Source: a virus (taxonomy: Duplodnaviria > Caudoviricetes). Taken from it: a stretch of DNA of 64,000 nt. Under the pieces are notes generated by a model. It was not told the origin of the DNA. It did no database searches and was given only the letters and a program-made list of their open reading frames with translations. Location of the stretch: IMG/VR virus record IMGVR_UViG_3300046542_000312, positions 1,260 to 65,259 of that record; one strand, written 5' to 3'. How positions within the stretch are numbered: position 1 is the stretch's first letter; each line of letters opens with the position of its first letter. A program made the translations under genes and the position numbers. Shown here one piece after another: positions 14,240-30,953 of the stretch.

Positions 14240-14570
14240 GCGCGGAATTTTTGGGGCGATGTTTGCGTTTTCGACGCCGGGGGTGTTTTTGGGCGGAATC
14301 GGAGGTTGGGTGTGGGAAATCGTATATATAGAAATGAATCCGGCGAAGGCCCAACCGGGGGGATGGGGGTGGGTAGGGGGAGCCCCACCCCCTCGTGCGC
14401 GCGACGCCTGCATGTGTGCCCGTGCGGACGCGCTTCCATACTCGTCGATCGGCATCCATCCGCGCGAAGGACTCGGCCTCGAATCCTTGCCCAATATGTT
14501 AACAAATAGTGCATTCTGATATGACGACCTTCTCCTTGAAGGTTACGATACCAACAATATCAACAACTTA
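14240..14570. other. Non-coding candidate packaging/terminus region
   Basis: T-tracts, G-run cluster at 14357-14380 with complementary C-run, IHF consensus at 14558-14570, next to terS. Confidence 0.4.
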
Positions 14571-15524
14571 GCTGTCGAGTTTGAGACTTCTGGAAATACG
14601 TGCCAGCATTTCGTCGTCAGAGAGTTCCTGGTAGTCGTCGTCCTTGTCGAGTGCCTTCGTGTCCCACAGCTTCACGTGCTTCATGGAGCCGAGAGCCTTG
14701 GCGGCGGCAACGCGGTCTGAATCCTTCTGGCCATCGCGCATCACGTCAACGAGCGCATCGATGACTTCACGTCTCACCAGGTCGGCATCATAGTATATCT
14801 GATGCCTCACAGCCGCCTTCAACGCTGCAATCCTTGCAGCCACGTGCGGCGTCTTCTCCAGTCTCGACGCCGCTGGCCCCGATGTCGTCCTCTCCATGTT
14901 CGAGCAGTCATAGCTGGCTTCGTAGGCCTCGATCTGCCGCTTCCCCTCAGAGCGCAACTGGCAGAACTTCTCCTGCTGTGCCGTCAGGCGCTTCGTCTTG
15001 CCATCGCTGGTCTTGTATGTGGCCGTCTTCGCCCGCGCCCTGCTGAGGGTATCGCTGTCCGGGTTCAGGTCTTCGTCCAGCTCTTCCGCGTATTCGGCCA
15101 GCTCTTCGTCCGTCATCGGCTCCTCTTCGACGGGGTCGTCCTTCTGCCCGGCGTGAGATTTAGTCTGCTTCGGCGGCTCCACGGACGCGATGCGCACAGG
15201 CACCGATGCCACCATCTCCACCACGTCGTCGGGAATGTCCTCCACCTCTGAAGCCCTTGTATCCTCGGCAGTTGGCGCATCCTCGGGCTTGCCGGCATCC
15301 TTCTCCTCGATCGGGTCGGCGGCGTGCTGCAGCACGGGCTCGGGTTCGATGGCGGCACTGTGGACTGGCGGGATCGGCTTGGCTCCTTTCCTGCTGTCGT
15401 TGAATGCCTTCTCGTATGCGGGCGTGGTCTCCCTCTCTGGTGACGGGGTGTTCTCTCCCATCTCCTTGAGCCTCTCCTTATTCGCTTGGGTGTTGGCTAG
15501 TAGTCTCTGCCTAAGATCGGACAT
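14568..15524 (-). CDS. terS: Terminase small subunit with long acidic N-terminal extension
   Basis: LTAQQEKFC..AYEASY..AASRL..PHVAARI..DRVAAAKALG; start MSDLRQ with GAGGAG. Confidence 0.85.
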   Translation of the reverse strand: MSDLRQRLLANTQANKERLKEMGENTPSPERETTPAYEKAFNDSRKGAKPIPPVHSAAIEPEPVLQHAADPIEEKDAGKPEDAPTAEDTRASEVEDIPDDVVEMVASVPVRIASVEPPKQTKSHAGQKDDPVEEEPMTDEELAEYAEELDEDLNPDSDTLSRARAKTATYKTSDGKTKRLTAQQEKFCQLRSEGKRQIEAYEASYDCSNMERTTSGPAASRLEKTPHVAARIAALKAAVRHQIYYDADLVRREVIDALVDVMRDGQKDSDRVAAAKALGSMKHVKLWDTKALDKDDDYQELSDDEMLARISRSLKLDS

Positions 15525-15525
15525 C

Positions 15526-15557
15526 TGTCGCTCCTCCTCGCTCTGCTCGTCAGTGCG
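15526..15557 (-). repeat. CGC-N3-TCCTCG-N3/7-CTCGTCA-S-TGCG element, copy 1
   Basis: Other copies at 17283-17314, 21003-21033 and 24429-24459. Confidence 0.85.
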
Positions 15558-15837
15558 GGCTACGCCGTTGTGCCCGCATGCAGTTCCATGTCTGACCTTG
15601 CACGGACGATGCCGATCCTGGAATACCTGCGGTATCTGGGCGTGTGTGACCTGCTCGTTTCCGGGGCAGGATTTGCGGCTCATGCATTCCACTTGCAGCC
15701 GCGTCGGCGGGCTGTCGGAGGCTTGCAGGCCCACTCCGAAATCTTTTTCAAATTATTTTCGACCCCGAATCACCAGCACTATCGAGTCCTTGTCAATAGG
15801 TTTGGCGGTCACTCTGAATAATTCTTTGCAAACCCTC

Positions 15838-15866
15838 TTGTGGCCGACGAATCCTTGCCGCATCTT
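15838..15866 (+). promoter_or_regulatory. Early promoter
   Basis: TTGTGG-N17-CATCTT after an AT-rich UP-like tract. Confidence 0.5.
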
Positions 15867-15998
15867 TTAATCATCGGCGGCACGGAATGGTCTTCGGATC
15901 CACTCAATAGCCCACACGGTCGAGACCGCCGACGGATCCTTCAGGATCACCTCTTGCTCCGGAGAAACGGGCTACGGAATGAGCGGCTCAGCCACTCG

Positions 15999-16018
15999 GT
16001 TATTTGACATCGTGAATA
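15999..16018 (+). promoter_or_regulatory. boxA-like antitermination element (or a TTGACA promoter)
   Basis: GTTATTTGACATCGTGAATA in the leader of the early operon, resembling rrn-leader boxA. Confidence 0.45.
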
Positions 16019-16140
16019 GATCCCTAGCGTCGATGACGCGAACGGACGGACACCAAGGTTCTCAAGGATTGGCCTGAGGCATCTACATCATTCGGATGTG
16101 GATACGGGCATGCCAACCGCCCACAACAAGGAGAGATACC

Positions 16141-16431
16141 ATGACCACACCAAAGGCAACTGCATCCAAGCTGTTCCGCGTCCTCAAGAAGATCCACGCA
16201 GAGATTGTGGAGCTAAAGGAGGAAGGACTCCAGGAGATGCTCGCCGAACTGAACGAGGCCTTCGATGACAAGTCGGAGAAGTGGCAGGACAGCGAGAAGG
16301 GTGCGAAGTTCCGGGAGGACATCGACACCATTGAATACTTCGAGGAGATCCTCGGACAGATCGAGAGCGCCTGCATCGAGGGAGCTGAACAGCTTCAGTC
16401 CTGCGACATCGAGGCCGATCTATACGCATAA
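16141..16431 (+). CDS. Acidic first early protein
   Basis: AAGGAG RBS; SEKWQDSEKG motif; D/E-rich. Confidence 0.8.
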   Translation: MTTPKATASKLFRVLKKIHAEIVELKEEGLQEMLAELNEAFDDKSEKWQDSEKGAKFREDIDTIEYFEEILGQIESACIEGAEQLQSCDIEADLYA

Positions 16432-16434
16432 CCA

Positions 16435-16498
16435 ACCGCCTGATGATGACCGACTGGCCTCGGTCGAAACGCTCTCTATGAGGGCGTCGCGGTAGCCA
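16435..16498 (+). ncRNA. Type I hammerhead ribozyme 1
   Basis: ACCGC-CUGAUGA-U-GACCGA/UCGGUC-GAAA-CGCUCUC/GAGGGCG-UC^GCGGU. Confidence 0.9.
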
Positions 16499-16538
16499 AC
16501 CAACGCCCGATCCCGCCGGGCCAGCAAAGGATACGAAC

Positions 16539-16730
16539 ATGAGCATCGAGAAGAAGAGACAGGCCGTAGCCGAGGGTTCCGTCGTTGCGTTCCGCAAGGG
16601 CAAGGAGGCCGTCTGGTATGTGGTCACCAGCACCATCGGAAAGTTCGGGATCGTCTACCGTGAGGAAGGCACGAGCAACGCCGAGCAGGTCATCGACCGC
16701 TGCTATATCGAACAGGTACGAGCCGCCTGA
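16539..16730 (+). CDS. Hypothetical protein
   Basis: AAGGA RBS. Confidence 0.75.
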   Translation: MSIEKKRQAVAEGSVVAFRKGKEAVWYVVTSTIGKFGIVYREEGTSNAEQVIDRCYIEQVRAA

Positions 16731-16787
16731 CGAGTCCTTTGGCGAGGACGAAACCGGATCTCTTCGGAGGTTTGGTAGCGGTAGCCA
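16722..16787 (+). ncRNA. Type I hammerhead ribozyme 2
   Basis: GCCGC-CUGACGA-GUCCUU/GAGGAC-GAAA-CCGGAUCUC(UUCG)GAGGUUUGG-UA^GCGGU. Confidence 0.92.
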
Positions 16788-16833
16788 ACCACAGGGAGCG
16801 TTCCACTGACCGCCGTTCCCGGAAAGGATCATC

Positions 16834-17073
16834 ATGATCAGCAGCAAGACATTCGCCCGCTACATGGAGCGGCATCACGCGGAGCCTTTCGAGGAGGAAG
16901 GCCTCGACTACACCTTTACGGTATGGACGGCGGGAGAGGACGAGGTAGGACAGGTGTCACACAGCCACCTCAACGGCTCCGTCGAATACCACCTGCGCGG
17001 ACCGGCGCTTGCCGAGTTCGAGAAAAGCAGGGAGGCCGCAAGGCTGAACGGCTGGATCGGAGGTGTGGCATGA
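16834..17073 (+). CDS. Hypothetical protein
   Basis: AAAGGA RBS. Confidence 0.75.
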   Translation: MISSKTFARYMERHHAEPFEEEGLDYTFTVWTAGEDEVGQVSHSHLNGSVEYHLRGPALAEFEKSREAARLNGWIGGVA

Positions 17074-17276
17074 CGGCGTCGTGGGCAACCATCAGTCACA
17101 TGCGAAAGCTGGACGGACTGGCTTCCACTCCATCGTGGATGGGGAGCATCGCGATCGATCTCGAAGAGGACGGTCTCATGCGCTACTCAGACGGAGTGTG
17201 GTCTATCACCCTAGAGGGACACGAGTTCATCTTCCTCAATGAAGAGGGTGTTCTCCTTGAAGATGACGAGGCGTAG
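17070..17276 (+). CDS. Hypothetical protein (wHTH-like ending ITLEG)
   Basis: ATGA overlap, GGAGG RBS. Confidence 0.65.
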   Translation: MTASWATISHMRKLDGLASTPSWMGSIAIDLEEDGLMRYSDGVWSITLEGHEFIFLNEEGVLLEDDEA

Positions 17277-17282
17277 ATGGGA

Positions 17283-17314
17283 TCGCCGCTCCTCGCCTCA
17301 GGCTCGTCACTGCG
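17283..17314 (-). repeat. TCCTCG/CTCGTCA element, copy 2
   Basis: TCGCCGCTCCTCG-CCTCAGG-CTCGTCACTGCG, intergenic. Confidence 0.75.
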
Positions 17315-17425
17315 GGAACGCTCCGCCATCGACGACTTCGCCGAAACATACGAAGGGCGGTATCTGGCCGACCTTCCGTCAACGACACACACCGCTTTCT
17401 ACCGGATGCCGGAAAGGAACACGAC

Positions 17426-17629
17426 ATGGCCTTCGACTACGCAGCACACCTCAAGGCGGCCTACGACCACAGGGCCGCATGCGAATCCTTCGTCATCACT
17501 GGCGGGCCGGATCTCATCATGGCTCGTCAGCGTCTGGAGGAGATAGGCCACCTGCCGCGCGGGACATGGGGGTATCTCGAAGCCGAGAGCCTCCGCCGCA
17601 AGCTTCACGACTACAAGCAAGCCGTCTGA
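17426..17629 (+). CDS. Hypothetical protein
   Basis: AAAGGA RBS. Confidence 0.75.
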   Translation: MAFDYAAHLKAAYDHRAACESFVITGGPDLIMARQRLEEIGHLPRGTWGYLEAESLRRKLHDYKQAV

Positions 17630-17685
17630 AGATGACGCTATGGCAAGCGTCGAAACCCTGAGGAAAGGCAGGGTCACGGTAGCCG
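17621..17685 (+). ncRNA. Type I hammerhead ribozyme 3
   Basis: GCCGU-CUGAAGA-U-GACGCU/AGCGUC-GAAA-CCCUG/CAGGG-UC^ACGGU. Confidence 0.9.
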
Positions 17686-17729
17686 GACAAACTGACTATC
17701 ATCAACGCGAACCACAGGGAGAACCAACC

Positions 17730-18140
17730 ATGGCTCAAGGCCGTGCCATCGACCATCAGCAGATCTTCATTAACGCGATCGACGAGGCCACTGGGCGCAT
17801 CAAGCTCGCTGGCGGCGTTGTCCGCTTCAACGCTCTAACCTTCCCGGTCTTAATCATGCAGGCCTTCGACTGGAACGACGAGGCGGTCGCCAAAGGTGCC
17901 ATCAACATGTCGGACGAGTTCCTGACCGAGGTCGTACTCCTTGAGGCGAACGCCACCGATGAGGAGCGCGAGATCTTCGGGCCGTTGGTTCCCATCGCAA
18001 TCCGGGGGTTCCTCGCAAGGGAGGCAGCCGAACACAAGCGCAAGGCCACCCTGTTCGCAGAAGCCGCCCGCAAGAACCGCGACCGACGCCGCGTCTACCA
18101 CAAGCATAAGTCCGGCCATGCGGCTGGAGATACGCCATGA
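17730..18140 (+). CDS. Hypothetical protein (start MAQGRA)
   Basis: AGGGAG RBS. Confidence 0.75.
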   Translation: MAQGRAIDHQQIFINAIDEATGRIKLAGGVVRFNALTFPVLIMQAFDWNDEAVAKGAINMSDEFLTEVVLLEANATDEEREIFGPLVPIAIRGFLAREAAEHKRKATLFAEAARKNRDRRRVYHKHKSGHAAGDTP

Positions 18141-18460
18141 CCGACGCAGCCTTCGAGGCCCGGCGGCATCTCAGGGAGGTCAACCGCATCGCCTCCCTCG
18201 CAAGCCAGATGGCCACCGGCTACATCATCGGCCGGAACTACTCGGCCGACAGCGGATATCAGGCGGGACGGTGGACGAAAGCCGTGGCCGCCGCCAGGAA
18301 GCGATACCCCGCACTGATCAAGTCCTCGCCCCTCGATGCGCTCCGGCTCTTTGCGGACATCGTGTCGGCCGTGAACGCCATGCACGAGGCAAGGACTTCC
18401 AAGCGGGATCTCGGACAGACATTCTCAATGGATCACGAACACCGCCTGACCGGACGATAA
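18137..18460 (+). CDS. Hypothetical protein
   Basis: ATGA overlap. Confidence 0.7.
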   Translation: MTDAAFEARRHLREVNRIASLASQMATGYIIGRNYSADSGYQAGRWTKAVAAARKRYPALIKSSPLDALRLFADIVSAVNAMHEARTSKRDLGQTFSMDHEHRLTGR

Positions 18461-18495
18461 CTCCGGCCGGGTGGCCAGACATATAGGAGGAGGAC

Positions 18496-19014
18496 ATGAA
18501 GCTCGAACGATACAGGGACTTCGCCGCCCGCATGGGTGCGGAGGGGGAGGACAGGCCGGAGACGCGGCTGGTCGAGGACGCCCACAGGGGACGGAGCCGT
18601 GACTGGTTCCTGGTCTTCGTGAAAGGAAAGAACGGCGGCGTCGCGCTGGTCGACTGTTTGAGGGGCCGCCTTCCGGAGACTGGCAACAGCTTCAAGATAC
18701 CGGCGGACACGACGAGGCTGGCACTGTCGCAGTACCTGCTGTCGGACACGGCGATGAAGGCGGCGCGGGAGATGCTCACGCCGGACAGCGAGGCCGACCT
18801 CGACATCTTCACCTTCGCCGTCGGACTGCATTCGCTGGAACGAAACGAGTACGGATCCGGTAACGGGGACTACGACACCAAGCCACCGTCGCTCGACGGC
18901 AGGCTCTGGCTCCGCATCCCGCGTGACCGGCGCATGGAGTTCGTCAAGGCGATGGCCATGGGGCTGCGACGCGGCATCCATCCCGACCAGACGACGGAGG
19001 AGATGCTGGCATGA
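18496..19014 (+). CDS. Hypothetical protein
   Basis: AGGAGGAGG RBS. Confidence 0.75.
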   Translation: MKLERYRDFAARMGAEGEDRPETRLVEDAHRGRSRDWFLVFVKGKNGGVALVDCLRGRLPETGNSFKIPADTTRLALSQYLLSDTAMKAAREMLTPDSEADLDIFTFAVGLHSLERNEYGSGNGDYDTKPPSLDGRLWLRIPRDRRMEFVKAMAMGLRRGIHPDQTTEEMLA

Positions 19015-19355
19015 CCTCGACGACAGAATGGGTTAGAGACTGGTTCCGCAAGAACGGTCTGGCCAGCATGGACGAGGTCATCAGGGGGCTGCCGATGTGC
19101 GATCCCCTGGAAGTCGAGGCCGTCACCTACGCGCTGGTGGCGACGGCCCAGCTCGGGGAGAACGAGGACGGGGACTTCTATCCGTGGTCGCCGTCTCCGT
19201 TCCCGCCGGAGGACATGGAGATCATCAGGGCTGAAGGATTCCCTCCGGGGTTCATCCGCCTGTTCTGCGACCGCCATGGATGCGATCTCTACGAGGCCAT
19301 GGAGCGTAACCAGAAGTATAGGTCCTTCATTAACCAGAAGTGGCAGGGGGAGTAG
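19011..19355 (+). CDS. Hypothetical protein
   Basis: ATGA overlap. Confidence 0.7.
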   Translation: MTSTTEWVRDWFRKNGLASMDEVIRGLPMCDPLEVEAVTYALVATAQLGENEDGDFYPWSPSPFPPEDMEIIRAEGFPPGFIRLFCDRHGCDLYEAMERNQKYRSFINQKWQGE

Positions 19356-19406
19356 ACAGTTGTCAACAATTGTATATGGTGAGCCTGCCAACCACGGAGA
19401 CACGCC

Positions 19407-19892
19407 ATGACCGCCATCGAATCCATCACCCTTCCTTACGACCTTCCCACCTTCGCAGGGGTCGACGCGGCGCATACGGCGGACTTCGGCATGCAGGCCT
19501 ATGTCGGCGGCGTGTCGGCCTGCATCCATCACTCGCTCACAACCAACATGCCCGTCTGGCTCGACGTGTTCTGCGCCGACCAGGCGACGGCCGACGCCTT
19601 CCTCGCCCACGTGGCCGACAAGGACGTGCTGCCGAACGTCAGGATCCCCGCCTTCCGCCATCTCGACGGCGTGGACGCATACATCTGCGACGGCCGCATG
19701 ATCTGGGCTTCCTGCCCGGCGCGCGCGGTCATCGAGGCGCTGGCCGAGGACGACACGTTCGACGAGGACGCGAAGCGGGAGACAGTCCGCTCCTACTTCG
19801 GTCTCGGCCACCCGGAACACGAGCTCCACCACTACGCCGGGTTCTTCGCAATGGGGGAAGAACTGGCGCGGCTTCTCAAGGTCACGAGATAA
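19407..19892 (+). CDS. Hypothetical protein
   Basis: GGAG RBS; TAGACA..TATGGT promoter at about 19353-19380. Confidence 0.75.
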   Translation: MTAIESITLPYDLPTFAGVDAAHTADFGMQAYVGGVSACIHHSLTTNMPVWLDVFCADQATADAFLAHVADKDVLPNVRIPAFRHLDGVDAYICDGRMIWASCPARAVIEALAEDDTFDEDAKRETVRSYFGLGHPEHELHHYAGFFAMGEELARLLKVTR

Positions 19893-19916
19893 GTCCAGCC
19901 ATGTAGCCAGACTTAT
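19889..19916. promoter_or_regulatory. Operator-like ATAAGTC-N14-GACTTAT
   Basis: Degenerate copies at 18457-18484 and 21039-21066. Confidence 0.6.
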
Positions 19917-19975
19917 GGATTGTCACTTGCAAGGCCGGATCGAATTATCAACTGGCCAACACAAGGAGAGCCATC

Positions 19976-20935
19976 ATGGGTCGCACATCCAATCGCATCA
20001 TATCCGAGTTCTCGCGCAAGCAGGGCGAACGCGTCAAGGCCATCGGCAAGCAGCCTGAGAACGGCGGCCTCGGTGGCAACCACTCCGTCACCACCTACTT
20101 CCTGTCCCGCGTCCTCTACCGCGTCGCCATGGCGGGCGGAGACAGCTACGCTCTGAAGGGCGGCATGCTCCACTACATGCGCGACGGCCTCGGCGGCTGC
20201 CGCCCCACATCCGACATCGACCTGCACGCCCACGACGAGGAGCTGGCCGGCGAGATCGACTACACGATCCGGGAGATGCTGACGGCCACAGTCTACGACG
20301 ACAACGGAGAGGTCGACGACGGCATCTGGATCGACAGCGTCATCCCGGAAGGACTCGCGCACTCGGGAGGAGAAGGCCGTCGGTTCGTCATCAAGGGCGG
20401 CGTCGGCGAGACCGAGGTCTCCGTCAAGATCGACGTGGGATTCGGGGGCGTGAAGCCAAAGGACATGGCCTACAAGGCCGTGCCACTGATCGCGAAGAAC
20501 GTGCCGACCGCCGAGATGCCGTGCTTCCCCGACTGGTACGTGGTGTCCGAAAAGCTACACGCCATCGAGCAGCATGGTGCCGAGAACACCCGCGTCCGCG
20601 ACTACTGGGATCTCCGCAAGTTCGCCCGCATGATCGAGGAAGGCACGCTCGACAGACAGAAGGTCATCGAGGCCATCGTCTTCACATACGGGGATCGCGA
20701 CACCGAGATCGACGCGGATCCCTTCGGACTGCGCGCTGAGTTCGCAGACGAGTTCCGCGAGAAGACGTGGAGGAACTGGCACAACTCCCGCAACTGGAAG
20801 CAGGAGGGCACCCTCGAGCAGTGCGTCCTCGACATCCAGGAGATCTACCGCGAACTCCTGTGGGAGGCACGTCTCCTCATCGAGGACAGGCTTGCCGACG
20901 CTCAGGCCTACGGGTATCCCGTCTACCGTCCCTGA
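19976..20935 (+). CDS. AbiEii/DUF1814-family nucleotidyltransferase toxin
   Basis: LKGG, RPTSDID, KIDVGFG, SEKLHA, RVRDYWDL. Confidence 0.9.
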   Translation: MGRTSNRIISEFSRKQGERVKAIGKQPENGGLGGNHSVTTYFLSRVLYRVAMAGGDSYALKGGMLHYMRDGLGGCRPTSDIDLHAHDEELAGEIDYTIREMLTATVYDDNGEVDDGIWIDSVIPEGLAHSGGEGRRFVIKGGVGETEVSVKIDVGFGGVKPKDMAYKAVPLIAKNVPTAEMPCFPDWYVVSEKLHAIEQHGAENTRVRDYWDLRKFARMIEEGTLDRQKVIEAIVFTYGDRDTEIDADPFGLRAEFADEFREKTWRNWHNSRNWKQEGTLEQCVLDIQEIYRELLWEARLLIEDRLADAQAYGYPVYRP

Positions 20936-20955
20936 TTACTATCATCATTCCCCAT

Positions 20956-20988
20956 AGCCCCCTTGGTTCATTCCTTGGGGGCTTTTTG
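20956..20988 (+). terminator. Rho-independent terminator
   Basis: AGCCCCC...GGGGGCT-TTTT. Confidence 0.8.
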
Positions 20989-21002
20989 CGTTCCGGAGAT
21001 TG

Positions 21003-21033
21003 TCGCTCCTCCTCGTGCCTCGTCAGTGCGAAG
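21003..21033 (-). repeat. TCCTCG/CTCGTCA element, copy 3
   Basis: 31 bp identical to 24429-24459. Confidence 0.9.
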
Positions 21034-21127
21034 GACTCATAACTCCGGCCACGTAGCCAATCTTTGCCTTGTTCCAGGATTCGCCGGCACACATGATGGG
21101 TGTACGCCAAGCTAACAAGGATTCATC

Positions 21128-22180
21128 ATGATCGACACGCTCTCCCAGTCCAGCATCAAGCCTTCGACCGTCGCCGAGATCATCGCCGCCGTCGTCGATC
21201 GCAACATGCGTCTCGCAGACGTCGGTTCCGGCAAGGAGCCGCTCACGCCCTACATCGTCGGCGACCCCGGCATCGCCAAGACTTCCGTCGTCCGGAAGGT
21301 GGGCCACACCATGGGGCTGGAAGTCCGCACGCTCATCACGGCGCAGTACGATCCGGCCGTTCTCGGCGGCTTCCCGATCGTGTCCGCGGACAAGGGTACG
21401 GTCAGGCGCGCACGTGCGGAGGAACTGCCATGGGAAGGACGCGGGATCCTGTTCCTCGACGAGCTGCCGCAGGCATCTCTGGCCGTCCAGAACATCGTGG
21501 CGCAGCTCATCCAGGAGCATCGCATCGGCCCGACGGTCATCCCTCCGACGTGGTCCATCATCGCCGCAGGCAACAAGCCGTCCAACCGTGCAGGCACCAC
21601 CACGATCCCCTCCCATCTCCGGGGCAGGCTCATGTTCCTCTACATGGAGCCGGACATCGACGAGTGGCTGGAATACGCCGTGGAGGCGGATGTCGCCGCG
21701 GAGATCGTCGGCTACCTCAGGTACCGCAAGGACTTCTTCCACAAGTTCGAGACCACCGCCGACGGTCAGCGCAACCCGCGTAGCTGGGAGAAGTCCAGCG
21801 AGATCATCGCTCTCAGGCTGTCTCCGCTGGCCGAGCAGGCGGCTCTGACGGGTGTTCTTGGTGTTGCTGGCGGCGGAGATCTTGCGGGCTTCCTCCGGCT
21901 CTACAGGGAGCTTCCGTCGATCGAGGAGATCCTGTCGAACCCGCGCGGTGCCAGACTGCCCGTCCAGCCTCAGGTGGCATACGCCTGCGCGGCCGCTCTC
22001 GCCCGTGCCGTTGACGCAGGCAACATCGACCGGGCGATCACGTATCTGGACCGCATCGGCAAGAACGACATCAAGACCTTCGCCCTGAACGACGCGCTCC
22101 TGCGCAATCCGGGAACCGTGCAGAACAAGGCGATGGCCGAGTGGATCATGAACTACCGCAAGCAGAGGAGCGTCGCATGA
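21128..22180 (+). CDS. MoxR-like AAA+ ATPase
   Basis: GDPGIAKT, LFLDE, AAGN, PRSWE. Confidence 0.92.
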   Translation: MIDTLSQSSIKPSTVAEIIAAVVDRNMRLADVGSGKEPLTPYIVGDPGIAKTSVVRKVGHTMGLEVRTLITAQYDPAVLGGFPIVSADKGTVRRARAEELPWEGRGILFLDELPQASLAVQNIVAQLIQEHRIGPTVIPPTWSIIAAGNKPSNRAGTTTIPSHLRGRLMFLYMEPDIDEWLEYAVEADVAAEIVGYLRYRKDFFHKFETTADGQRNPRSWEKSSEIIALRLSPLAEQAALTGVLGVAGGGDLAGFLRLYRELPSIEEILSNPRGARLPVQPQVAYACAAALARAVDAGNIDRAITYLDRIGKNDIKTFALNDALLRNPGTVQNKAMAEWIMNYRKQRSVA

Positions 22181-22299
22181 GGATCCGTTTCGTATTCGCC
22201 GCAGGGGTGATGCTCCTGCTCGCCGCCTGCCAGAGCAACAACCAGTACAGCGATCCGATCGTCATCGAGGCGATCAGGCTACAGAACGAGGGGAAATGA
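22177..22299 (+). CDS. 40-aa lipoprotein MRIRFVFAAGVMLLLAACQSNN...
   Basis: Lipobox LAAC; ATGA overlaps at both ends; GAGGAG RBS. Confidence 0.7.
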   Translation: MRIRFVFAAGVMLLLAACQSNNQYSDPIVIEAIRLQNEGK

Positions 22300-23306
22300 A
22301 CATGTACGACCACGAAGACAAGAAGACCATCGACATCGAAGACTACATCGTAGCGGCCGGCACCAGCGACACGCCCGTCGCCGACATGCCTGTGGCATTC
22401 GAGGAAGCCGCCGAAGTGAAGGACGACGATGGCAACCTGCACAGGACGTCGCTTCTGATCTCGGTCAAGTTCTCGGCATGGAAGGGCGAGCGCGTCGACC
22501 GTCCGGCCTCCGACGAGATCGTCCGGCAGAGCAAGGCCGAATCCAAGTCGGCCCGCGTCGTCAAGTCGCTGGTGTCGAAGGAATACCTCACCGACATCAA
22601 TGCGTCGATGAAGTCGCTCAAGACCATCTGGCACCTCCAGACGCTCCCCTGGATGGATTCGGGCCAGCGCATCATTCCGGCGACGAAGTTCCCCAAGTTC
22701 ATGGACGCGGCCCTGCCGATCATCAACCAGTTCGACCAGGCCGCCGACAAGTTCGCATCGGAGTATCCGGATCTCCTGTCGAAAGCGGAGGCCCGTCTCG
22801 GATCCCTATACCGCGCCGAGGACTATCCGGACGTGGCCAGCGTGCGCGCTCTCTTCGCCGTGACGATCCGTCCGTCTCCCGTGCCGCACTATGACGACTG
22901 GCGCGTCGACCTTCCGAACGAACAGATCGAGGCCATCAAGCTTCTGACGAGGAAGTCCACGGCCGAGGCATGCGCCCAGGCGACACGCGTGCTGGCACTG
23001 CGTCTCTACAAGCTCGTCCACCAGTTCCACGACAGGATCGACGCGTTCGACAAGGGCGAGACCGAACGCCTGCGCTCCCAGCTCACGGATGCGATCGGCG
23101 ATCTCGCAGGCAGGGCCGACGACTACAACTTCGAGGGCAACCATGAGCTGGCCGGGATCATCTCGGACATGAAGAACCAGCTTGCCGTGCCGACCAAGGG
23201 ACTCGTCCGCAACGAGGAGGCCCGCGCCGTGGTGAAGAGCAACGCCGAGAACTTGATGGGCAGGCTGCGTGGTCTCGGTCTCTCGAAGGATTCGTCCGAT
23301 GAGTGA
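22296..23306 (+). CDS. DUF3150-like protein
   Basis: TLPW..GQRIIP and F..EYP..A..RLG.LY..EDYP pattern; usual AAA/VWA partner. Confidence 0.7.
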   Translation: MNMYDHEDKKTIDIEDYIVAAGTSDTPVADMPVAFEEAAEVKDDDGNLHRTSLLISVKFSAWKGERVDRPASDEIVRQSKAESKSARVVKSLVSKEYLTDINASMKSLKTIWHLQTLPWMDSGQRIIPATKFPKFMDAALPIINQFDQAADKFASEYPDLLSKAEARLGSLYRAEDYPDVASVRALFAVTIRPSPVPHYDDWRVDLPNEQIEAIKLLTRKSTAEACAQATRVLALRLYKLVHQFHDRIDAFDKGETERLRSQLTDAIGDLAGRADDYNFEGNHELAGIISDMKNQLAVPTKGLVRNEEARAVVKSNAENLMGRLRGLGLSKDSSDE

Positions 23307-24426
23307 TGCGGCGGCACGTGGCGTCGAGGCGGCGATGACGGGGCTGATGAACACACAGCCCTTCTTCGCCTCGGTGCTTCACACGATGGAGGTCTCCGTC
23401 GAGGACAGCCTGCCGACGTCCACTATCATCGTCGACGGGGAGCGGGTGTTCATTCATCCGCGCTTCGTTCTCGAGCACACCGAGAAGGAGCTTCAGGCCG
23501 TGCTGGCGAAAGAGGCTATGCACGTGGTCTACAAGCACCACCTGAGGCGTGGCGACAGGGATGCGCGCATCTGGAACCTCGCCGCCTCATACGTGGCCAT
23601 TCCGCTCGTCCTGGAGTGTGGTCTCTATCCGCCGCGTGGATACCTTCACGACAAGGATTTCGAGAACCTGTCCGTCGAGGAGGTCTACGAAATCCTGAAG
23701 GAAGACCTCGAAGACGACGAGGAGGAGATCGAACAGCAATTCGGCCGCGCCGCCGAGACCGGAGGCATCGTCATCGACCCGGAGGACGCGTCGAAGGCTT
23801 CCGGCCAGGGGCAGATGCAACTGGAGGCCGACGTCCGCTTCGCCATGGCCCAGGCATCCCAGCAGGGCAAGCTTCCGGGATCTCTGAAGAGAAAGCTCGA
23901 TGCGGGGCTGGAGAGGGCCGTACAGTGGCAGGAGCTGCTTTTGCATGAACTCACCCGTCACGGAGCCTTGGACTGGTCCTACGCCCGTCCCAGCCTGTTT
24001 GCGCCACCAGATGTGATCCTTCCCACCACGCATGGCATGCAGGCAGGCGTGGTCGTCATCGCCGGGGACACTTCGGGGTCGCTTTCGGTCGAGCAGCTCA
24101 TGGACCAGATCGCCGAGACGAACGCCATCATCGAACAGGCTCGGCCGTCGCTCGTCTGGCTCGTCCAGTGCGACGAACACGTACAGCATGCCGAAGTCCT
24201 CGATGGGCCGATCCCCGGACTGCAGGTGGCCGGCGGCGGCGGCACGCGGTTCCAGCCCGTGTTCGACTGGATCGAGGAGATGGAGGTCAATCCCGACGTC
24301 CTCATCTACATGACCGACTGCGAAGGCCCGGCTCCGTTCGAACCGGACTATCCGGTGATCTGGCTGTCGTGTTCCCGGAAGAGCGGGCCGTTCGGGACTA
24401 CCATCCATACCAACAGTCCCAACTGA
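23299..24426 (+). CDS. DUF2201-type metallopeptidase-like plus VWA domain protein
   Basis: DTSGS MIDAS, GGGGT, TD; N-terminal KEAMH..H.LRR and WNLA. Confidence 0.88.
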   Translation: MSDAAARGVEAAMTGLMNTQPFFASVLHTMEVSVEDSLPTSTIIVDGERVFIHPRFVLEHTEKELQAVLAKEAMHVVYKHHLRRGDRDARIWNLAASYVAIPLVLECGLYPPRGYLHDKDFENLSVEEVYEILKEDLEDDEEEIEQQFGRAAETGGIVIDPEDASKASGQGQMQLEADVRFAMAQASQQGKLPGSLKRKLDAGLERAVQWQELLLHELTRHGALDWSYARPSLFAPPDVILPTTHGMQAGVVVIAGDTSGSLSVEQLMDQIAETNAIIEQARPSLVWLVQCDEHVQHAEVLDGPIPGLQVAGGGGTRFQPVFDWIEEMEVNPDVLIYMTDCEGPAPFEPDYPVIWLSCSRKSGPFGTTIHTNSPN

Positions 24427-24428
24427 AC

Positions 24429-24459
24429 TCGCTCCTCCTCGTGCCTCGTCAGTGCGAAG
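24429..24459 (-). repeat. TCCTCG/CTCGTCA element, copy 4
   Basis: Identical to 21003-21033. Confidence 0.9.
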
Positions 24460-24518
24460 AATCGTTAACCTCGGATGCGTCGGCCGCTTGACGGTTGCAT
24501 GGCGCACCGTTAACGTCC

Positions 24519-24641
24519 AATCAGCACTGGGGAGCATGGCCCCGGCAGCGGTCTCGCGGAAGCTGAGACATCCTTTCTTCCTTGGTTGGCGCTTTAGAAG
24601 AAAGCACCCCGTTCTCGAAAGAGGCGGGGTGTTCTGCTTTT
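24519..24641 (+). ncRNA. Candidate sRNA or attenuated leader
   Basis: TTGACG-N17-TAACGT promoter (24488-24516), hairpin, CU-rich stretch, and terminator-like GCACCCCG..CGGGGTGT. Confidence 0.4.
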
Positions 24642-24859
24642 ATGGCTCCGCTATCATCAAGGCACGTGTCGCAAATGCCGAATTCGTGGCCACTGAATGG
24701 GTTCTGACCGTCCATCCGGTGTTCGACACGTCAATAGTTCTTCGACGCACTGTATGGCCTGTTTCTGACGGTTATCCGTATTTCCCTTCATGTTCGACGA
24801 CTCCAGTCAGGATGCACGCTCGTCTGTTTGCCGTCCGTTTCTATTAAGATTCAAGGACA

Positions 24860-25008
24860 TACGTGATTATCTACTTCCACTACCCTTCTGTCCTCCGCCT
24901 CCCTGCTCGCTCTGAGTCAGATTCCGAATCCGAGTCTCCAACAGGAGGCAGGTGGGGGGGGCAGGTGGGCAGGTGGGCAGGTGGGTAGTGGAAGTAGATA
25001 ATCACGTA
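24860..25008. repeat. 26-bp perfect inverted repeat enclosing 4 tandem GANTC sites and GCAGGTGG x4; putative replication origin
   Basis: TACGTGATTATCTACTTCCACTACCC (24860-24885) and its complement (24983-25008). Confidence 0.75.
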
Positions 25009-25171
25009 CATAACTGTAACTGTTATATAATCCTCGACACGAGTCCTATGTTGGAAGCACTGTTGAAGGATTCGATTGTAGCCGGCGCTTGCGGCTGGCA
25101 GAAACGTGTCTCACTATCTGGATGTCACCGCCGCGTTTGCCGACGCGAGTGACGCTTAGAAAGGACACATC

Positions 25172-26380
25172 ATGAAAGCCAATCCCCTGCATCACACATG
25201 CACGTGGTTCGACAGCGAACTCCGTGACCGCGCACTTTGCTTCGACTGGGACGTTGACCCGGACACCGTCGAGCAGCTTGTGCCATTTCCTCCTTACAGG
25301 ACGACGAAGGGCCGCAACACGATGGCCGCCGTCATCTCGGATGCGATTATCTCCTCGAAGATGCACCCAGGAATCCGCACGTCGTACTCCCGCAACAACA
25401 ACTGGAATGCCGAAAAGTCCCGCTACTACGGGAAGGATCTGGCGCTGACCACGGTTCCCGAGATCGTCGATCGTCTCGTGGACAGCGGAGTCCTTGTCGA
25501 GCACGACAAGCGCCCTCCGACGCCGTTCGCCACCGGAATCCAGTCTTCATTCCTCCCGTCCGAACACCTGAAGGACATCGAGCTTCAGGCCGTACGGCGT
25601 CGACGCAACGAGCTGATCCGCCTCAAGGACAAGGAAGGCGGATACATCGACTACAAGGACACGGAGCGCACGGAGCGTGACCGCAGGTTCGTGACGAAGA
25701 TCAATCGAATCCTTGAGGAAGCCGACATCGAGCTGAACTCTCCGAATGGTATCCAGGAAGGAGACCTGATCCGGTTCTCCGAGCATTCCGTCATCGCGGC
25801 TGACAAGTCCCTCTACCGGGTCTATAACCGCGGCGTATGGACGATGGGCGGAAGGTTCTACGGAGGCTTCTGGCAGGGTGTCAGCAAGAAGGACAGGGCG
25901 TTCTTCTGCATCAACGGCCAGTCTGTCGCCGAGGAGGACTACAGTCAGATCCATCCGTCCATGCTGTATGCCATGGCAGGAGCCACGAAGGACGGAGACG
26001 CCTACGATATCCCCGGCTGGGATCGCGACCTCTGTAAGAAGGCGTTCAACATCCTCATCAACGCCAACGGCTGGACTCAGTGCCACAATGCGCTGATGTA
26101 CAAGGGCATGGACTACGACGAGGCGGCCGCCTTCATCGAGGCGGTCAAGGCCAAGCACCCGAAGATCCGGGAATACTTTCACAGCGGACTCGGCATCGAA
26201 CTCCAGAACTTCGACTCGGCGATGTGCCGGATCGTGCTTGACGAGATGAGCATCAAGCGCAAGATCGTGTGCCTCCCCATCCACGATTCCTTCATCGTCC
26301 CTGAGGACTGCCGTGACGAACTGGTCGAAGTGATGCAGATGGCCTGGAGCAAGGTGATGCCGACGCTGGCAAATCACTGA
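25172..26380 (+). CDS. Family-A/T7-RNAP-fold polymerase (TV-Pol-like), putative replication initiator or primase
   Basis: GGRFY, motif A EEDYSQIHP, motif B RDLCKK, motif C PIHDSF; no exonuclease domain. Confidence 0.75.
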   Translation: MKANPLHHTCTWFDSELRDRALCFDWDVDPDTVEQLVPFPPYRTTKGRNTMAAVISDAIISSKMHPGIRTSYSRNNNWNAEKSRYYGKDLALTTVPEIVDRLVDSGVLVEHDKRPPTPFATGIQSSFLPSEHLKDIELQAVRRRRNELIRLKDKEGGYIDYKDTERTERDRRFVTKINRILEEADIELNSPNGIQEGDLIRFSEHSVIAADKSLYRVYNRGVWTMGGRFYGGFWQGVSKKDRAFFCINGQSVAEEDYSQIHPSMLYAMAGATKDGDAYDIPGWDRDLCKKAFNILINANGWTQCHNALMYKGMDYDEAAAFIEAVKAKHPKIREYFHSGLGIELQNFDSAMCRIVLDEMSIKRKIVCLPIHDSFIVPEDCRDELVEVMQMAWSKVMPTLANH

Positions 26381-26383
26381 AAC

Positions 26384-26426
26384 TGAAACGGCCTCGGGGG
26401 AAAGGACTCACCCCGAGGCCGTTAAA
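26384..26426. terminator. Bidirectional terminator hairpin
   Basis: AACGGCCTCGGGG / CCCCGAGGCCGTT. Confidence 0.75.
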
Positions 26427-26517
26427 TTAGGTTCTCCAACCTCTTCATCCCTACCGGACGGGCCGTTTCACCGTGAGGCTATTGGCAGGGACGAAGGTTT
26501 GCCGTCCTTCATCCATA
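26427..26517 (-). ncRNA. Candidate antisense sRNA
   Basis: TTGACA-N17-TATCAA promoter (26551-26523); long stem AACCUUCGUCCCUGCC/GGUAGGGAUGAA(GA)GGUU. Confidence 0.5.
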
Positions 26518-26642
26518 ATGAATTGATACAGGTGTGACATGTATTTGTCAACAGCCGACGGCTCGGCCATCTGGGTTGATAAACCTTATAAAACAATAAC
26601 TTATATCAATGTCAACTTACTATTTGGCTCGTGATGCAAGAA

Positions 26643-27200
26643 TCACCCGTGCATCTCGACCTCGACAGTCACGCACTGGAGATGCGCAAGCCCACGCTCG
26701 GCCAGTCTCCTGCGCTTCGCCTCCTTGCCTTCCTGCTCGAGCATGAGCATCTTCTCGCGGTTGTTGGCGATGTACTCGTGATCCTTCTTCAGGAGCTTCA
26801 GTCCGTGCTGGACGCGGTACTCGATGCGGATGTCGCGGTTGCGCTCGCGCTCGGCCTCGCAGACGTCCCATTCGCGGAGCATGTCCTGGAGAACGCCGGC
26901 CAGTCTCTTCGCCTCATCCGGGTCTGCGGTGATGATCGTCTCGAAGAACTTCTTCACCGGGATCTCCTCGACCTCGGCGCAGTGGCAGAGCGTCTGGAAC
27001 TCCTCGGACTTCAGCCATCGCCGAACCTTCGCCTGTCCGAAGTTGTCCTCCGGCTTGTGGTAGGCCTCAATGGCCGCCTCGCTTGCCTCGATGTACAGTT
27101 CCCCCAGAACCGCCCGGAATAGTCTCGCATCGTACGATGCATCTCGGTCTGTCTCGATCGATGGATTTTGCGTAGTGCTTCTCTGTGATTGCGCGGTCAT
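26643..27200 (-). CDS. Hypothetical coiled-coil protein (start uncertain)
   Basis: Good codon usage; overlaps the rusA 3' end. Confidence 0.65.
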   Translation of the reverse strand: MTAQSQRSTTQNPSIETDRDASYDARLFRAVLGELYIEASEAAIEAYHKPEDNFGQAKVRRWLKSEEFQTLCHCAEVEEIPVKKFFETIITADPDEAKRLAGVLQDMLREWDVCEAERERNRDIRIEYRVQHGLKLLKKDHEYIANNREKMLMLEQEGKEAKRRRLAERGLAHLQCVTVEVEMHG

Positions 27201-27516
27201 TGACGTAGATCCTCCCCTGCAAGGCGTCTTCCACCAGACTTCCGTCCAGATCGGGCCTTCTCGATGCGTAGTAGATGAACAGATACAGCCGGAGCTCGCC
27301 CTCCAGCATCTCACCCAGCACAGGGCACTGGCGCTCGAACGTCTTCAGATAGTCCAGGGCTTTCTGCGACTTGATCGACCTGACCCGGCCGTTCGCCGCC
27401 GGCACGATCCGCCGGCTGTTTGCCTTCGAGCATGGCTCGCCGAGGATCTCGAACTGAACCCAGCGGGTTCCGTCCTCCTCGAATCCTTCCTCCAGCTCAG
27501 CCTGTTTAATCGCCAT
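27067..27516 (-). CDS. rusA: RusA-family Holliday junction resolvase
   Basis: GEPCSKAN, RRPDLD..VEDALQG.IYVNDR. Confidence 0.85.
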   Translation of the reverse strand: MAIKQAELEEGFEEDGTRWVQFEILGEPCSKANSRRIVPAANGRVRSIKSQKALDYLKTFERQCPVLGEMLEGELRLYLFIYYASRRPDLDGSLVEDALQGRIYVNDRAITEKHYAKSIDRDRPRCIVRCETIPGGSGGTVHRGKRGGH

Positions 27517-27659
27517 TACCCTGCTGTTAACCTTCAAGCGTCAACAGGATTGCTATTCCAATCCTTGCCAACAGTTGCCGTGAGTCCTTCGGAAGCCTTG
27601 ATTCACACATGCTCCACACCGATGATTGTATCCGCCGACAAGGGAAGGAACCAAACCCC

Positions 27660-28586: not shown

Positions 28587-28876
28587 ACAAGACCTTCAGA
28601 CTGCGTTCCGAGGCCTACATGGCCCATGTGAGGACTTTTCCGTGTCTGGTATGCGGAGACGTGTCGGAAGCCCACCATCTGCTCCGCACGCCCGATGGAA
28701 GGGGCATGGGCATGAAGTCCGGCGACCAGTGGTGCGTGCCACTCTGCCACGAGCACCACATGGAGCTTCACAATCTCGGAGCCGAGCCGCTCTATTTTAC
28801 CCTCAAGGGAGTCGAGGATCCCGTCACATGGGCGCGATGCTGCTACGCCGCATGGGAGATGCTCCATGGCGAGTGA
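28583..28876 (+). CDS. DUF968/HNH-like zinc-binding protein
   Basis: PCLVCG..AHH..GMGMKSGD..VPLCHEHH..LH. Confidence 0.8.
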   Translation: MNKTFRLRSEAYMAHVRTFPCLVCGDVSEAHHLLRTPDGRGMGMKSGDQWCVPLCHEHHMELHNLGAEPLYFTLKGVEDPVTWARCCYAAWEMLHGE

Positions 28877-29465: not shown

Positions 29466-29523
29466 GTCCTACAAAACCCGACCGAATCCTTCAAAAGCCT
29501 ATTGCGCCGATCGAGTCCTTGGG

Positions 29524-29539
29524 TTAACGATGGATTAAC
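29524..29539 (+). promoter_or_regulatory. CtrA box upstream of the excisionase-like gene
   Basis: gTTAAcgatggaTTAAC, perfect in both orientations. Confidence 0.75.
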
Positions 29540-29568
29540 AAAGATTTGACTTGAAGGATTCAACGACA

Positions 29569-30391: not shown

Positions 30392-30392
30392 C

Positions 30393-30932: not shown

Positions 30933-30953
30933 GGACAAAACCCGCCGGCGATT

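What the first reader, a model, noticed from the sequence alone, without database searches (positions are those of the whole stretch)
16435..17685. Three hammerhead ribozymes punctuate the early operon, with stop codons inside the catalytic core
Seen: three complete type I hammerheads with divergent, covarying stems (cleavage after 16488, 16777, 17675). In HH2 and HH3 the UGA of CUGANGA is the stop codon of the upstream gene (16728-30, 17627-29). In HH1 it is in frame four codons after the TAA stop. Each loop II has UGGC, able to pair with a conserved 3' AGCC(A/G). Known: hammerheads occur in phages. Inference: terminating ribosomes would occlude stem I and the core, coupling cleavage to translation and cutting the early mRNA into 5'-OH units without RNase III.
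Basis: partly seen in the sequence, partly recalled or inferred. Interest (0 to 1): 0.85.

Follow-up and report, generated by a model that had tools for sequence, protein, structure and literature searches.

The report
Three hammerhead ribozymes between phage genes
Three genuine self-cleaving hammerhead RNA motifs sit between small genes at the start of a phage operon, an arrangement already described for prophages, but two of them use a core UGA as the stop codon of the gene before them, which turns out to be common in this ribozyme family.

Summary
Three complete type I hammerhead motifs lie on the + strand, with predicted cuts after 16488, 16777 and 17675. All have the full catalytic core, three divergent but pairing stems, and a 4-5 bp loop II / 3'-tail pseudoknot. 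No others occur in the 65-kb temperate phage genome, and almost no random sequence gives one. Rfam misses them, probably because two carry an extra U after A9.

They belong to a large IMG/VR family: 132 distinct copies, up to 7 per locus. Loop II and the tail covary.

The core UGA is the stop codon of gene B (16728-30) and gene E (17627-29). This recurs across the family: 48 of 125 upstream frames end on the core UGA and 42 end 7-9 nt before the core. The next start codon lies a median 41 nt after the cut.

Clustered hammerheads flanking small phage genes, with pseudoknots and shown cleavage, were published in 2011 (PMC3088659). So these are new members of a known kind. The stop/core overlap did not turn up in my searches, and coupling of cleavage to translation remains an untested inference. 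No RNA data were available.

The parts
16435..16498 (+). Hammerhead 1 (type I). Stem I is 16435-39 with 16489-93. The core is at 16440-46, with an extra U at 16447. Loop II UGGC is at 16455-58. The predicted cut is after C16488. The pseudoknot tail GCCA is at 16495-98.
   Evidence: 72.5 bits with own model R1, which was trained on it; MFE is the hammerhead fold, z -2.51.
16722..16788 (+). Hammerhead 2 (type I). Stem I is 16722-26 with 16778-82. The core is at 16727-33, and its UGA 16728-30 is the stop codon of gene B. Loop II UUGGC is at 16739-43. The predicted cut is after A16777. The tail GCCAA is at 16784-88.
   Evidence: Rfam Hammerhead_1 at 21.2 bits, below the cut-off of 34; 55.2 bits.
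17621..17685 (+). Hammerhead 3 (type I). Stem I is 17621-25 with 17676-80, with a compensatory U-A pair. The core is at 17626-32, and its UGA 17627-29 is the stop codon of gene E. An extra U is at 17633. Loop II UGGC is at 17641-44. The predicted cut is after C17675. The tail GCCG is at 17682-85.
   Evidence: (60.5 bits). In a related metagenome contig the listed changes inside it fall only in loop II outside UGGC (17640) and behind the tail (17689).
16141..16431 (+). Gene A, a small protein of unknown function. The likely start is ATG 16141 behind AAGGAG; the longest ORF starts at 16096. The TAA stop is at 16429-31, 8 nt before the HH1 core.
   Evidence: GC by codon position 0.57/0.36/0.72; phrog_4068, unknown function, E 8.5e-6.
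16539..16730 (+). Gene B (63 aa, no family). It starts 50 nt after the HH1 cut and ends on the UGA of the HH2 core. The predicted excised RNA 16489-16777 is 289 nt and carries only this gene.
   Evidence: (GC 0.56/0.42/0.80; GGA-rich ribosome-binding site).
16834..17276 (+). Genes C (16834-17073, 79 aa) and D (17070-17276, 68 aa, ATGA overlap). They are the first genes of the predicted 898-nt fragment 16778-17675.
   Evidence: All 6 of 6 substitutions listed in gene C in a related contig fall on third codon positions (my arithmetic).
17426..17629 (+). Gene E (67 aa, no family). It ends on the UGA of the HH3 core.
   Evidence: (GC 0.68/0.44/0.76, against 0.61/0.67/0.54 for the longer overlapping frame 17239-17661). 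The one listed substitution (17605) is at a third codon position.
17730..18140 (+). Gene F (136 aa, no family). It starts 54 nt after the HH3 cut and is the first gene of the remaining downstream transcript.

Best explanation
These are three functional type I hammerhead self-cleaving ribozymes in the intergenic spaces at the start of the rightward (+ strand) operon of a 65-kb temperate phage.

As the polycistronic RNA is made, each ribozyme folds. Stem I is 5 bp. A short pseudoknot between loop II and the 3' tail holds stems I and II side by side. Each ribozyme then cuts after its C17 or A17.

This splits the transcript into four pieces:
- leader plus gene A;
- a 289-nt gene B RNA;
- an 898-nt RNA carrying genes C to E;
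- the rest, starting with gene F.

Because the topology is type I, almost the whole ribozyme (two stable hairpins and a 2',3'-cyclic phosphate) stays as the 3' end of the upstream piece. The downstream piece begins with a 5'-OH and a leader of about 50 nt before its start codon.

Shown here: the motifs, their statistical support, their family, the pseudoknot covariation, and the gene layout.

Inferred: that cleavage happens in vivo, and that its purpose is to give each cistron its own stability and translation. That inference rests on tested relatives in PMC3088659 and on general knowledge, recalled, that 5'-OH ends and structured 3' ends slow RNase E-type and 3'-exonuclease decay.
For: Motifs and chance:
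- The full core, the A15.1-U16.1 pair, a non-G at position 17 and three helices are present in all three.
- The descriptor finds 3 hits in the genome, against 0 of 200 random sequences in each of two settings and 1 of 200 in an earlier buggy run.
- The MFE fold equals the hammerhead fold for all three.

Family:
- Using patterns taken from these elements, 148 hammerheads (132 distinct) of the same build were found in 103 of 287 sources (286 IMG/VR loci plus the window). All copies within a locus lie on one strand, with up to 7 per locus and a median spacing of 496 nt.
- On 60 of the 130 alignable copies, 16 of 18 pairs show changes on both sides. The three stems were required by my filter, so only the pseudoknot is an independent test there.

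Pseudoknot:
- The best loop II / tail pairing with the true partner averages 4.18 bp, against 3.69 +/- 0.066 for swapped partners. None of 500 permutations reached the observed value.

Genes:
- The flanking ORFs show a coding GC pattern.
- In a related contig, 7 of 7 listed coding substitutions are at third codon positions.

Literature:
- Triple hammerhead clusters flanking small prophage genes cleave in vitro. One cluster also cleaves in E. coli (PMC3088659, passages).
Against: - There is no RNA evidence. No RNA run holds the sequence, and self-cleavage cannot be tested here.
- Rfam gives no match at gathering score. A permissive scan finds only HH2, at 21.2 bits against 34, and with stem III misaligned.
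- HH1 and HH3 carry an extra U between A9 and G10.1, whose effect on rate I did not find measured in the passages I read.
- The pseudoknots are short: 4 bp in HH1, 4 bp with a G-U pair in HH3. In a type II hammerhead, shortening the pseudoknot from 6 to 4 bp lowered the rate about 20-fold (PMC3088659).
- With about 60 nt of downstream sequence added, the MFE no longer keeps stem I in any of the three, and stem II survives only in HH1. Folding would therefore have to be co-transcriptional.
- The purpose of cleavage in phages is still called an open question in the 2017 and 2019 reviews.
Confidence: 0.82

Rival explanations
1. Ribosome-gated ribozymes. The upstream gene's stop codon lies in or just before the core, so a terminating ribosome holds the 5' strand of stem I and the core in its mRNA channel. 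Cleavage, or release of the cut downstream piece, would then depend on how often the upstream gene is translated.
For: - In the window, 2 of 3 stops are the core UGA. The third lies 11 nt before the core (first base of the TAA to the core C) and in frame with it.
- In the family, 48 of 125 upstream frames of at least 50 codons end on the core UGA and 42 end at -9..-7.
- After clustering by upstream sequence, this becomes 44 and 34 of 112 clusters.
- The UGA frame is open for at least 100 codons upstream in 38 of 132 copies, against 9 and 9 for the two control frames.
- Among stops at -9..-7, 23 of 42 are in frame with the core UGA (binomial P 0.003).
- Ribosome footprint geometry (recalled, not checked here) puts stem I inside a ribosome stopped at these positions.
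Against: - The same layout is expected from plain compaction. A gene can overlap a ribozyme only in the frame that meets the UGA, and the downstream start is equally tightly placed (median 41 nt, interquartile range 36-54).
- In 23 of 125 copies the stop is 10-45 nt upstream, so the arrangement is not obligatory.
- My gene calls are crude: I took the longest open frame, which mis-called HH3 in the window itself.
- There is no experimental or expression data.
Confidence: 0.25
2. Hammerheads as cassette borders. The conserved stem I and tail sequences serve mainly as recombination points at which small genes are swapped between phages, and cleavage is secondary.
For: - HH1 and HH2 share an identical 3' segment from the cut through the tail.
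- The family keeps CCGC/GCGG stems next to unrelated ORFan genes.
- One contig of a related phage joins the front of HH3 (up to 17662) to the sequence just after the HH2 cut (16778 onward), which implies a different gene order.
Against: - This rests on a single low-depth (3.79) metagenome contig that may be chimeric.
- The conservation of stem I is partly forced by my search patterns.
- Recombination does not explain the conserved catalytic core or the loop/tail covariation.
Confidence: 0.12
3. Cut-and-rejoin. Because all three ribozymes share stem I and pseudoknot sequences, the fragment between two cuts could reassemble a hammerhead from its own two ends and ligate into a circular RNA, or flanking pieces could be spliced.
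For: - Stem I and tail are interchangeable among the three elements.
- Both ends carry the chemistry needed for reverse hammerhead ligation (general knowledge, recalled).
Against: - The authors of PMC3088659 state that they looked for spliced or circular products from such clusters and detected neither (data not shown there).
- In other multi-hammerhead loci, for example L152, neighbouring elements have different stems and tails.
Confidence: 0.04
4. Chance motifs or dead relics with no activity.
For: - Rfam gathering thresholds are not reached.
- Two of the three have an extra core-adjacent nucleotide.
Against: - A hit appears in 0 of 200 random sequences in each of two settings and in 1 of 200 in the earlier buggy run.
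- The core is intact in all three.
- The extra U is the majority state of the family, in 71 of 132 copies.
- Compensatory changes occur in every stem and in the pseudoknot.
Confidence: 0.03

Closest known systems
Clustered hammerheads in prophages: the triple arrangements of Agrobacterium tumefaciens, Azorhizobium caulinodans and Clostridium scindens (Perreault et al. 2011, PMC3088659; passages read)
   Same: Several hammerheads lie on one strand, flanking single small genes or short blocks in phage DNA. A pseudoknot joins the stem I and stem II regions. They are proposed to cut long phage transcripts into gene-length mRNAs. Cleavage was shown in vitro, and for one cluster in E. coli.
   Different: The phage here is unrelated. 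The best large-terminase identity in GenBank phages is 42.7%, and there is no blastn match. All three elements here are type I. The phrase 'stop codon' does not occur in that paper's main text, so the overlap of the upstream stop with the core is not discussed there. Its supplements could not be opened.
Rfam RF00163 Hammerhead_1 (type I)
   Same: The same core, the same order of helices, and stem I open.
   Different: The elements score below the family's gathering cut-off: HH2 reaches 21.2 bits against 34, and HH1 and HH3 are not reported. Likely reasons are the extra U after A9 (71 of 132 in this family), the long stem III, and a pseudoknot that the model cannot score.
RNase III processing of phage T7 early mRNA (recalled, not checked here)
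   Same: An early polycistronic phage transcript is cut between genes into stable units, each ending in a hairpin.
   Different: In T7 a host protein enzyme cuts and leaves a 5'-phosphate and a 3'-OH. Here the RNA would cut itself and leave a 5'-OH and a 2',3'-cyclic phosphate.
Viroid hammerhead with an extra nucleotide between A9 and G10.1 (chrysanthemum chlorotic mottle viroid; recalled, not checked here)
   Same: One extra base sits at the same place next to the core in an active natural hammerhead.
   Different: In the viroid the extra base is an A, in a type III ribozyme of a circular RNA. Here it is a U, in type I ribozymes of a DNA phage.

Membership tests
Hammerhead ribozyme | Conserved core C3 U4 G5 A6 N7 G8 A9 ... 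G12 A13 A14 | tested here: met
   The cores are CUGAUGA, CUGACGA and CUGAAGA, each followed by GAA(A), in all three. HH1 and HH3 have one extra U after A9, as do 71 of 132 relatives.
Hammerhead ribozyme | Three helices around the core, with an A15.1-U16.1 pair and a non-G at the cleavage position 17 | tested here: met
   Stems I/II/III are 5/6/8, 5/6/10 and 5/6/6 bp by my descriptor. Stem II of HH2 is 4 bp if loop II is left free for the pseudoknot. Position 17 is C, A and C. The MFE fold is the three-way junction.
Hammerhead ribozyme, type I topology | Stem I is the open helix, in the order stem I 5' strand, core, stem II hairpin, GAAA, stem III hairpin, cleavage site, stem I 3' strand | tested here: met
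   This order is seen in all three.
Hammerhead ribozyme | A tertiary contact between the stem I and stem II regions that allows fast cleavage | tested here: met
   Loop II pairs with the tail over 4, 5 and 4 bp. In the family the true partners pair better than swapped ones, with none of 500 permutations reaching the observed value. All 4 of 4 pseudoknot pairs show changes on both sides, with 70.3% of cells paired, on 60 of 130 sequences.
Hammerhead ribozyme | Reaches the curated Rfam gathering score of a hammerhead model | tested here: not met
   There are 0 matches at gathering score. Only HH2 appears, at 21.2 bits against 34. This is a database criterion, not a biochemical one.
Hammerhead ribozyme | Site-specific self-cleavage giving a 2',3'-cyclic phosphate and a 5'-OH | not testable with these tools
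   No RNA run holds the region.
Clustered phage/prophage hammerheads (PMC3088659) | Several hammerheads on the coding strand, flanking single genes or short blocks in phage DNA | tested here: met
   The three elements bracket gene B alone and genes C-E. The record is a phage with terminase subunits, an integrase and an exonuclease.
Clustered phage/prophage hammerheads (PMC3088659) | The polycistronic transcript is actually cut into the predicted pieces | not testable with these tools
   This needs transcription assays or end-specific RNA sequencing.

The most novel reading that the evidence does not exclude
The hammerhead is one half of a conserved 'stop - ribozyme - start' cassette. The upstream gene's terminating ribosome sits on stem I and the core (stop at -9..+1 in 90 of 125 family members; the core UGA itself in 48). 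The ribozyme would therefore read out translation of the gene before it. Either ribosome traffic delays cleavage, or ribosome unwinding of stem I expels the cut downstream RNA and makes the cut irreversible. That would give phage hammerheads a regulatory role, translation-dependent segmentation of operon mRNA, and would address the open question of what they are for.
Probability: 0.25. Interest if true: 0.7.

Novelty: new member of a known kind. Interest (0 to 1): 0.4.

Why it matters
The biological role of bacterial and phage hammerheads is still described as an open question in the reviews I read (2017 and 2019).

This window adds a clean natural example in a phage with no close cultured relative. 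It also gave search patterns that recovered 132 distinct relatives.

Two regularities in those relatives make the question testable:
- The upstream gene usually ends in the core UGA or within 9 nt before the core.
- The next gene starts about 40 nt after the cut.

If translation of the upstream gene controls cleavage or product release, these ribozymes would be a self-contained, host-independent way for a phage to set the stoichiometry and lifetime of its early mRNAs.

The survey also shows that the current Rfam type I model misses this common phage subfamily.

Tried and rejected
- **Rfam.** The gathering scan of the window found nothing. The permissive whole-window scan listed only two unrelated weak rows. 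The permissive local scan found only HH2, below the cut-off.
- **First IMG/VR pattern.** It was too loose: only 1 of 118 loci held a structured hammerhead.
- **The single genome-contig scan.** Nothing can be said about hosts from it.
- **The genome search with model R1.** It found nothing in 5 genomes or in 151 genomes of one order. Only a small share of candidates was scored (150 per genome, at most 34), and the tool itself says an empty answer shows nothing.
- **Relatives of the phage.** There was no blastn match in GenBank phages. Gene F has no relative in IMG/VR. Gene-for-gene comparison of the operon was therefore not possible.
- **Gene function.** PHROGs and Pfam give no function for genes B-F or the next four ORFs.
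- **Leaders after each cut.** The folds are no more stable than shuffles (z 0.29, 0.15, -0.04). No RBS-masking switch was seen.
- **Promoters and terminators.** The scan of 15500-19500 was not above shuffles, so the promoter is not located.
- **RNA evidence.** No RNA holder was listed.
- **The diverged HH1-like copy in run X2.** It has 7 other letters and 5 gaps in one low-depth contig. I did not reconstruct it.
- **Two descriptor hits with very long 'stem III' regions (L153, L161).** They are doubtful but remained in the family counts.
- **Tools.** Supplements of PMC3088659 could not be opened; its Figures S1-S7 and sequence tables may already show stop-codon positions.
- **Searches for prior reports of a stop codon in the hammerhead core.** They returned no relevant paper. 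One search found nothing newer on phage hammerhead function. One search added only the 2017 review read.
Full report
**What is there**

The window is bases 1260-65259 of a single 65,259-base virus record with 60.6% G+C. It encodes:
- small and large terminase subunits on the minus strand (14568-15734 and 2097-3662);
- a long plus-strand gene block from about 16100 to 32200, which ends with an exonuclease and a tyrosine-type integrase (31042-32217).

It is therefore a temperate phage. Its nearest large terminase among GenBank phages is only 42.7% identical, and its DNA has no blastn match there.

The finding lies in the first 1.6 kb of the plus-strand block, just right of the divergent intergenic region 15735-16140.

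**The observation**

Each of the three elements has, in this order:
- a 5-bp stem I 5' strand;
- the core CUGANGA;
- a stem II hairpin;
- GAAA;
- a stem III hairpin;
- U followed by a non-G base;
- the stem I 3' strand.

This is the type I order. The stems differ in sequence and length but all pair. HH3 carries a compensatory U-A in stem I where the others have C-G.

Support against chance:
- A pattern joining the core, GAAA and the shared 3' heptamer matched three times, and no match appeared in any of 100 shuffles.
- A structural descriptor of my own found exactly these three in the whole genome on both strands. It found none in 200 random sequences of the same dinucleotide make-up, at two stringencies.
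- An earlier version with a loop-length bug missed HH2 and had one hit in 200 random sequences.
- Each element alone folds into the hammerhead junction as its minimum-free-energy structure, with z-scores of -2.5, -1.6 and -1.4.
- A covariance model built from family members finds only these three in the window with filters off. The next hit scores 12.5 bits. The three were in the training set, so this shows only that there is no fourth copy.

Rfam does not report them:
- There is nothing at gathering score.
- In a permissive local scan only HH2 appears, at 21.2 bits against a cut-off of 34, and with stem III misaligned.

The likely reasons are an extra U between A9 and G10.1 in HH1 and HH3, the long stem III, and a pseudoknot that a covariance model cannot score.

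**The genes**

GC content by codon position matches that of the long, confident genes of this phage (about 0.6/0.4/0.8). It supports these calls:

| Gene | Coordinates |
|---|---|
| A | 16141 (or 16096) to 16431 |
| B | 16539-16730 |
| C | 16834-17073 |
| D | 17070-17276 |
| E | 17426-17629 |
| F | 17730-18140 |

It argues against the longer overlapping frames.

A related phage in a second metagenome run differs from the window at seven listed positions inside genes C and E. All seven are third codon positions (the arithmetic is mine).

The stop codons are as follows:
- Gene B's stop codon is the UGA of the HH2 core.
- Gene E's stop codon is the UGA of the HH3 core.
- Gene A ends with TAA 8 nt before the HH1 core, in frame with that core's UGA.

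None of genes B-F matches a Pfam or PHROG family.

**The family**

Filtering the returned loci with the descriptor gave 148 hammerheads, 132 of them distinct, in 103 of 287 sources.
- 24 sources hold two or more, with up to seven in 3.3 kb.
- Within a locus all copies lie on one strand.
- The median spacing between neighbours is 496 nt and the minimum is 242 nt.
- The extra U is present in 71 of 132 copies. Position 17 is C in 116.

The loop II / tail contact is real:
- Different members pair UGGC with GCCA, UUGAC with GUCAA, GAGAC with GUCUC, and GGAUA with UAUCC.
- True partners give a longer best pairing than swapped partners: 4.18 against 3.69 +/- 0.066, with none of 500 permutations as high.
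- On a MAFFT alignment of 60 of the 130 alignable copies, all four pseudoknot pairs show double changes.

The three stems were demanded by my filter, so their pairing in that alignment is partly by construction.

**Stop codons across the family**

For each distinct copy I took the longest upstream open frame that ends between -45 and the end of the ribozyme. In 125 of 132 copies it has at least 50 codons. The stops fall as follows:

| Position of the stop relative to the core | Copies (of 125) |
|---|---|
| The core UGA itself | 48 |
| -9 to -7 | 42 |
| 10-45 nt upstream | 23 |
| Inside the ribozyme in another frame | 12 |

- The last class includes HH3 of the window, where the method picked a non-coding frame, so it is noisy.
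- Clustering by upstream sequence leaves 112 groups, distributed 44 / 34 / 20 / 10, with 4 unassigned.
- As an internal control, the frame that meets the UGA is open for at least 100 codons in 38 of 132 copies. The other two frames are open that far in 9 and 9.
- The next start codon with a Shine-Dalgarno-like motif was found for 109 of 132 copies. It lies a median 41 nt after the cut, with an interquartile range of 36-54. In the window the distances are 50, 56 and 54 nt.

The unit is therefore a compact stop-ribozyme-start cassette.

**How it most likely works**

The best-supported reading is the published one. The ribozymes cut the polycistronic transcript co-transcriptionally into gene-length RNAs.

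In the type I order the ribozyme body stays on the upstream piece, so that piece keeps its stop codon and ends in two hairpins with a cyclic phosphate. The downstream piece starts with a 5'-OH.

From general knowledge (recalled), such ends slow 3'-exonucleases, polyadenylation-dependent decay and 5'-end-dependent RNase E. This would uncouple the lifetimes of neighbouring cistrons. These steps are inferred, not shown.

When about 60 nt of downstream sequence are added, the thermodynamic optimum no longer keeps stem I in any of the three, and stem II survives only in HH1. Cleavage would therefore have to be fast and co-transcriptional.

**What is known already**

Perreault et al. 2011 (PMC3088659; passages read) report that:
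- this implies processing of long phage transcripts;
- three triple clusters cleave in vitro, and one also cleaves in E. coli;
- pseudoknots occur in all three hammerhead types;
- no circular or spliced product was seen.

A 2017 review (PMC6155905) describes hammerheads flanking small non-conserved ORFs and linked to phages, and calls their role an open question. A 2019 review (PMC6765202) says the same of polycistronic processing.

The phrase 'stop codon' does not occur in the main text of the 2011 paper or the 2017 review. My two searches that combined hammerhead with stop codon returned nothing relevant. The supplements were closed, so I cannot exclude that the overlap is visible there.

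A ribosome stopped at -9..+1 should hold stem I's 5' strand in its channel (recalled geometry), so occlusion is physically plausible. The recurrence of the layout is a real regularity.

But the layout is also what compaction predicts. A gene can run into a ribozyme only in the frame that meets the UGA, and the downstream side is just as tight. About one in five members has the stop further away.

I give gating a probability of about 0.25. A variant worth testing is that ribosome unwinding of stem I drives release of the cut 3' piece.

**Verdict**

The hammerheads are real and the coordinates are exact. They are new members of a known kind. The stop/core overlap is a recurrent feature of the family that I did not find reported, and it yields a testable hypothesis, but it does not yet change what these elements are thought to do. 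Interest is 0.4.

Noticed in passing
window 17662 joined to 16778 (run X2): One 450-nt contig of a related phage joins the front of HH3 to the sequence that follows the HH2 cut. This implies a gene order of E then C. Either hammerheads mark points of cassette exchange, or the low-depth contig is chimeric.
   Followed up: partly
window 17619-17659 (run X1, record 2): A separate 295-nt contig in the same sample matches only the HH3 core and stem II region. It continues with a different stem III and a similar GGUAGCC tail. A further family member from another phage is therefore present in that sample.
   Followed up: no
family loci, e.g. L138, L368, L350: Arrays of 5-7 hammerheads within 2-3.3 kb, each separated by one small ORF. 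These are much denser than the triple clusters described in 2011.
   Followed up: partly
window 16447 and 17633; family: An extra U between A9 and G10.1 is the majority state of this phage family (71 of 132). It probably explains why Rfam's type I model misses them.
   Followed up: partly
window 17277-17425: A 149-nt stretch between genes D and E is covered only by ORF 17277-17546, which overlaps gene E out of frame and has an ambiguous codon-position GC pattern (0.50/0.64/0.70). A small extra gene or a long leader is possible.
   Followed up: no
window 16096-16141: The longest frame of gene A starts at 16096 without a ribosome-binding site. ATG 16141 follows AAGGAG and is the more likely start.
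   Followed up: partly
window 32720-39079 (-): A 2119-aa ORF lies on the minus strand. A 566-aa 'DNA transfer protein' (5309-7009) is also present (PHROG match). Together with a terminase related to Pelagibacter podophage HTVC023P, these suggest a podovirus-like phage from a rhizosphere metagenome. I did not annotate the 2119-aa ORF.
   Followed up: no
L153 and L161: Two descriptor hits have a region of about 80 nt between GAAA and the cut, and an AU-rich build. They may be a different hammerhead subfamily or false positives. They were left in the family counts.
   Followed up: no
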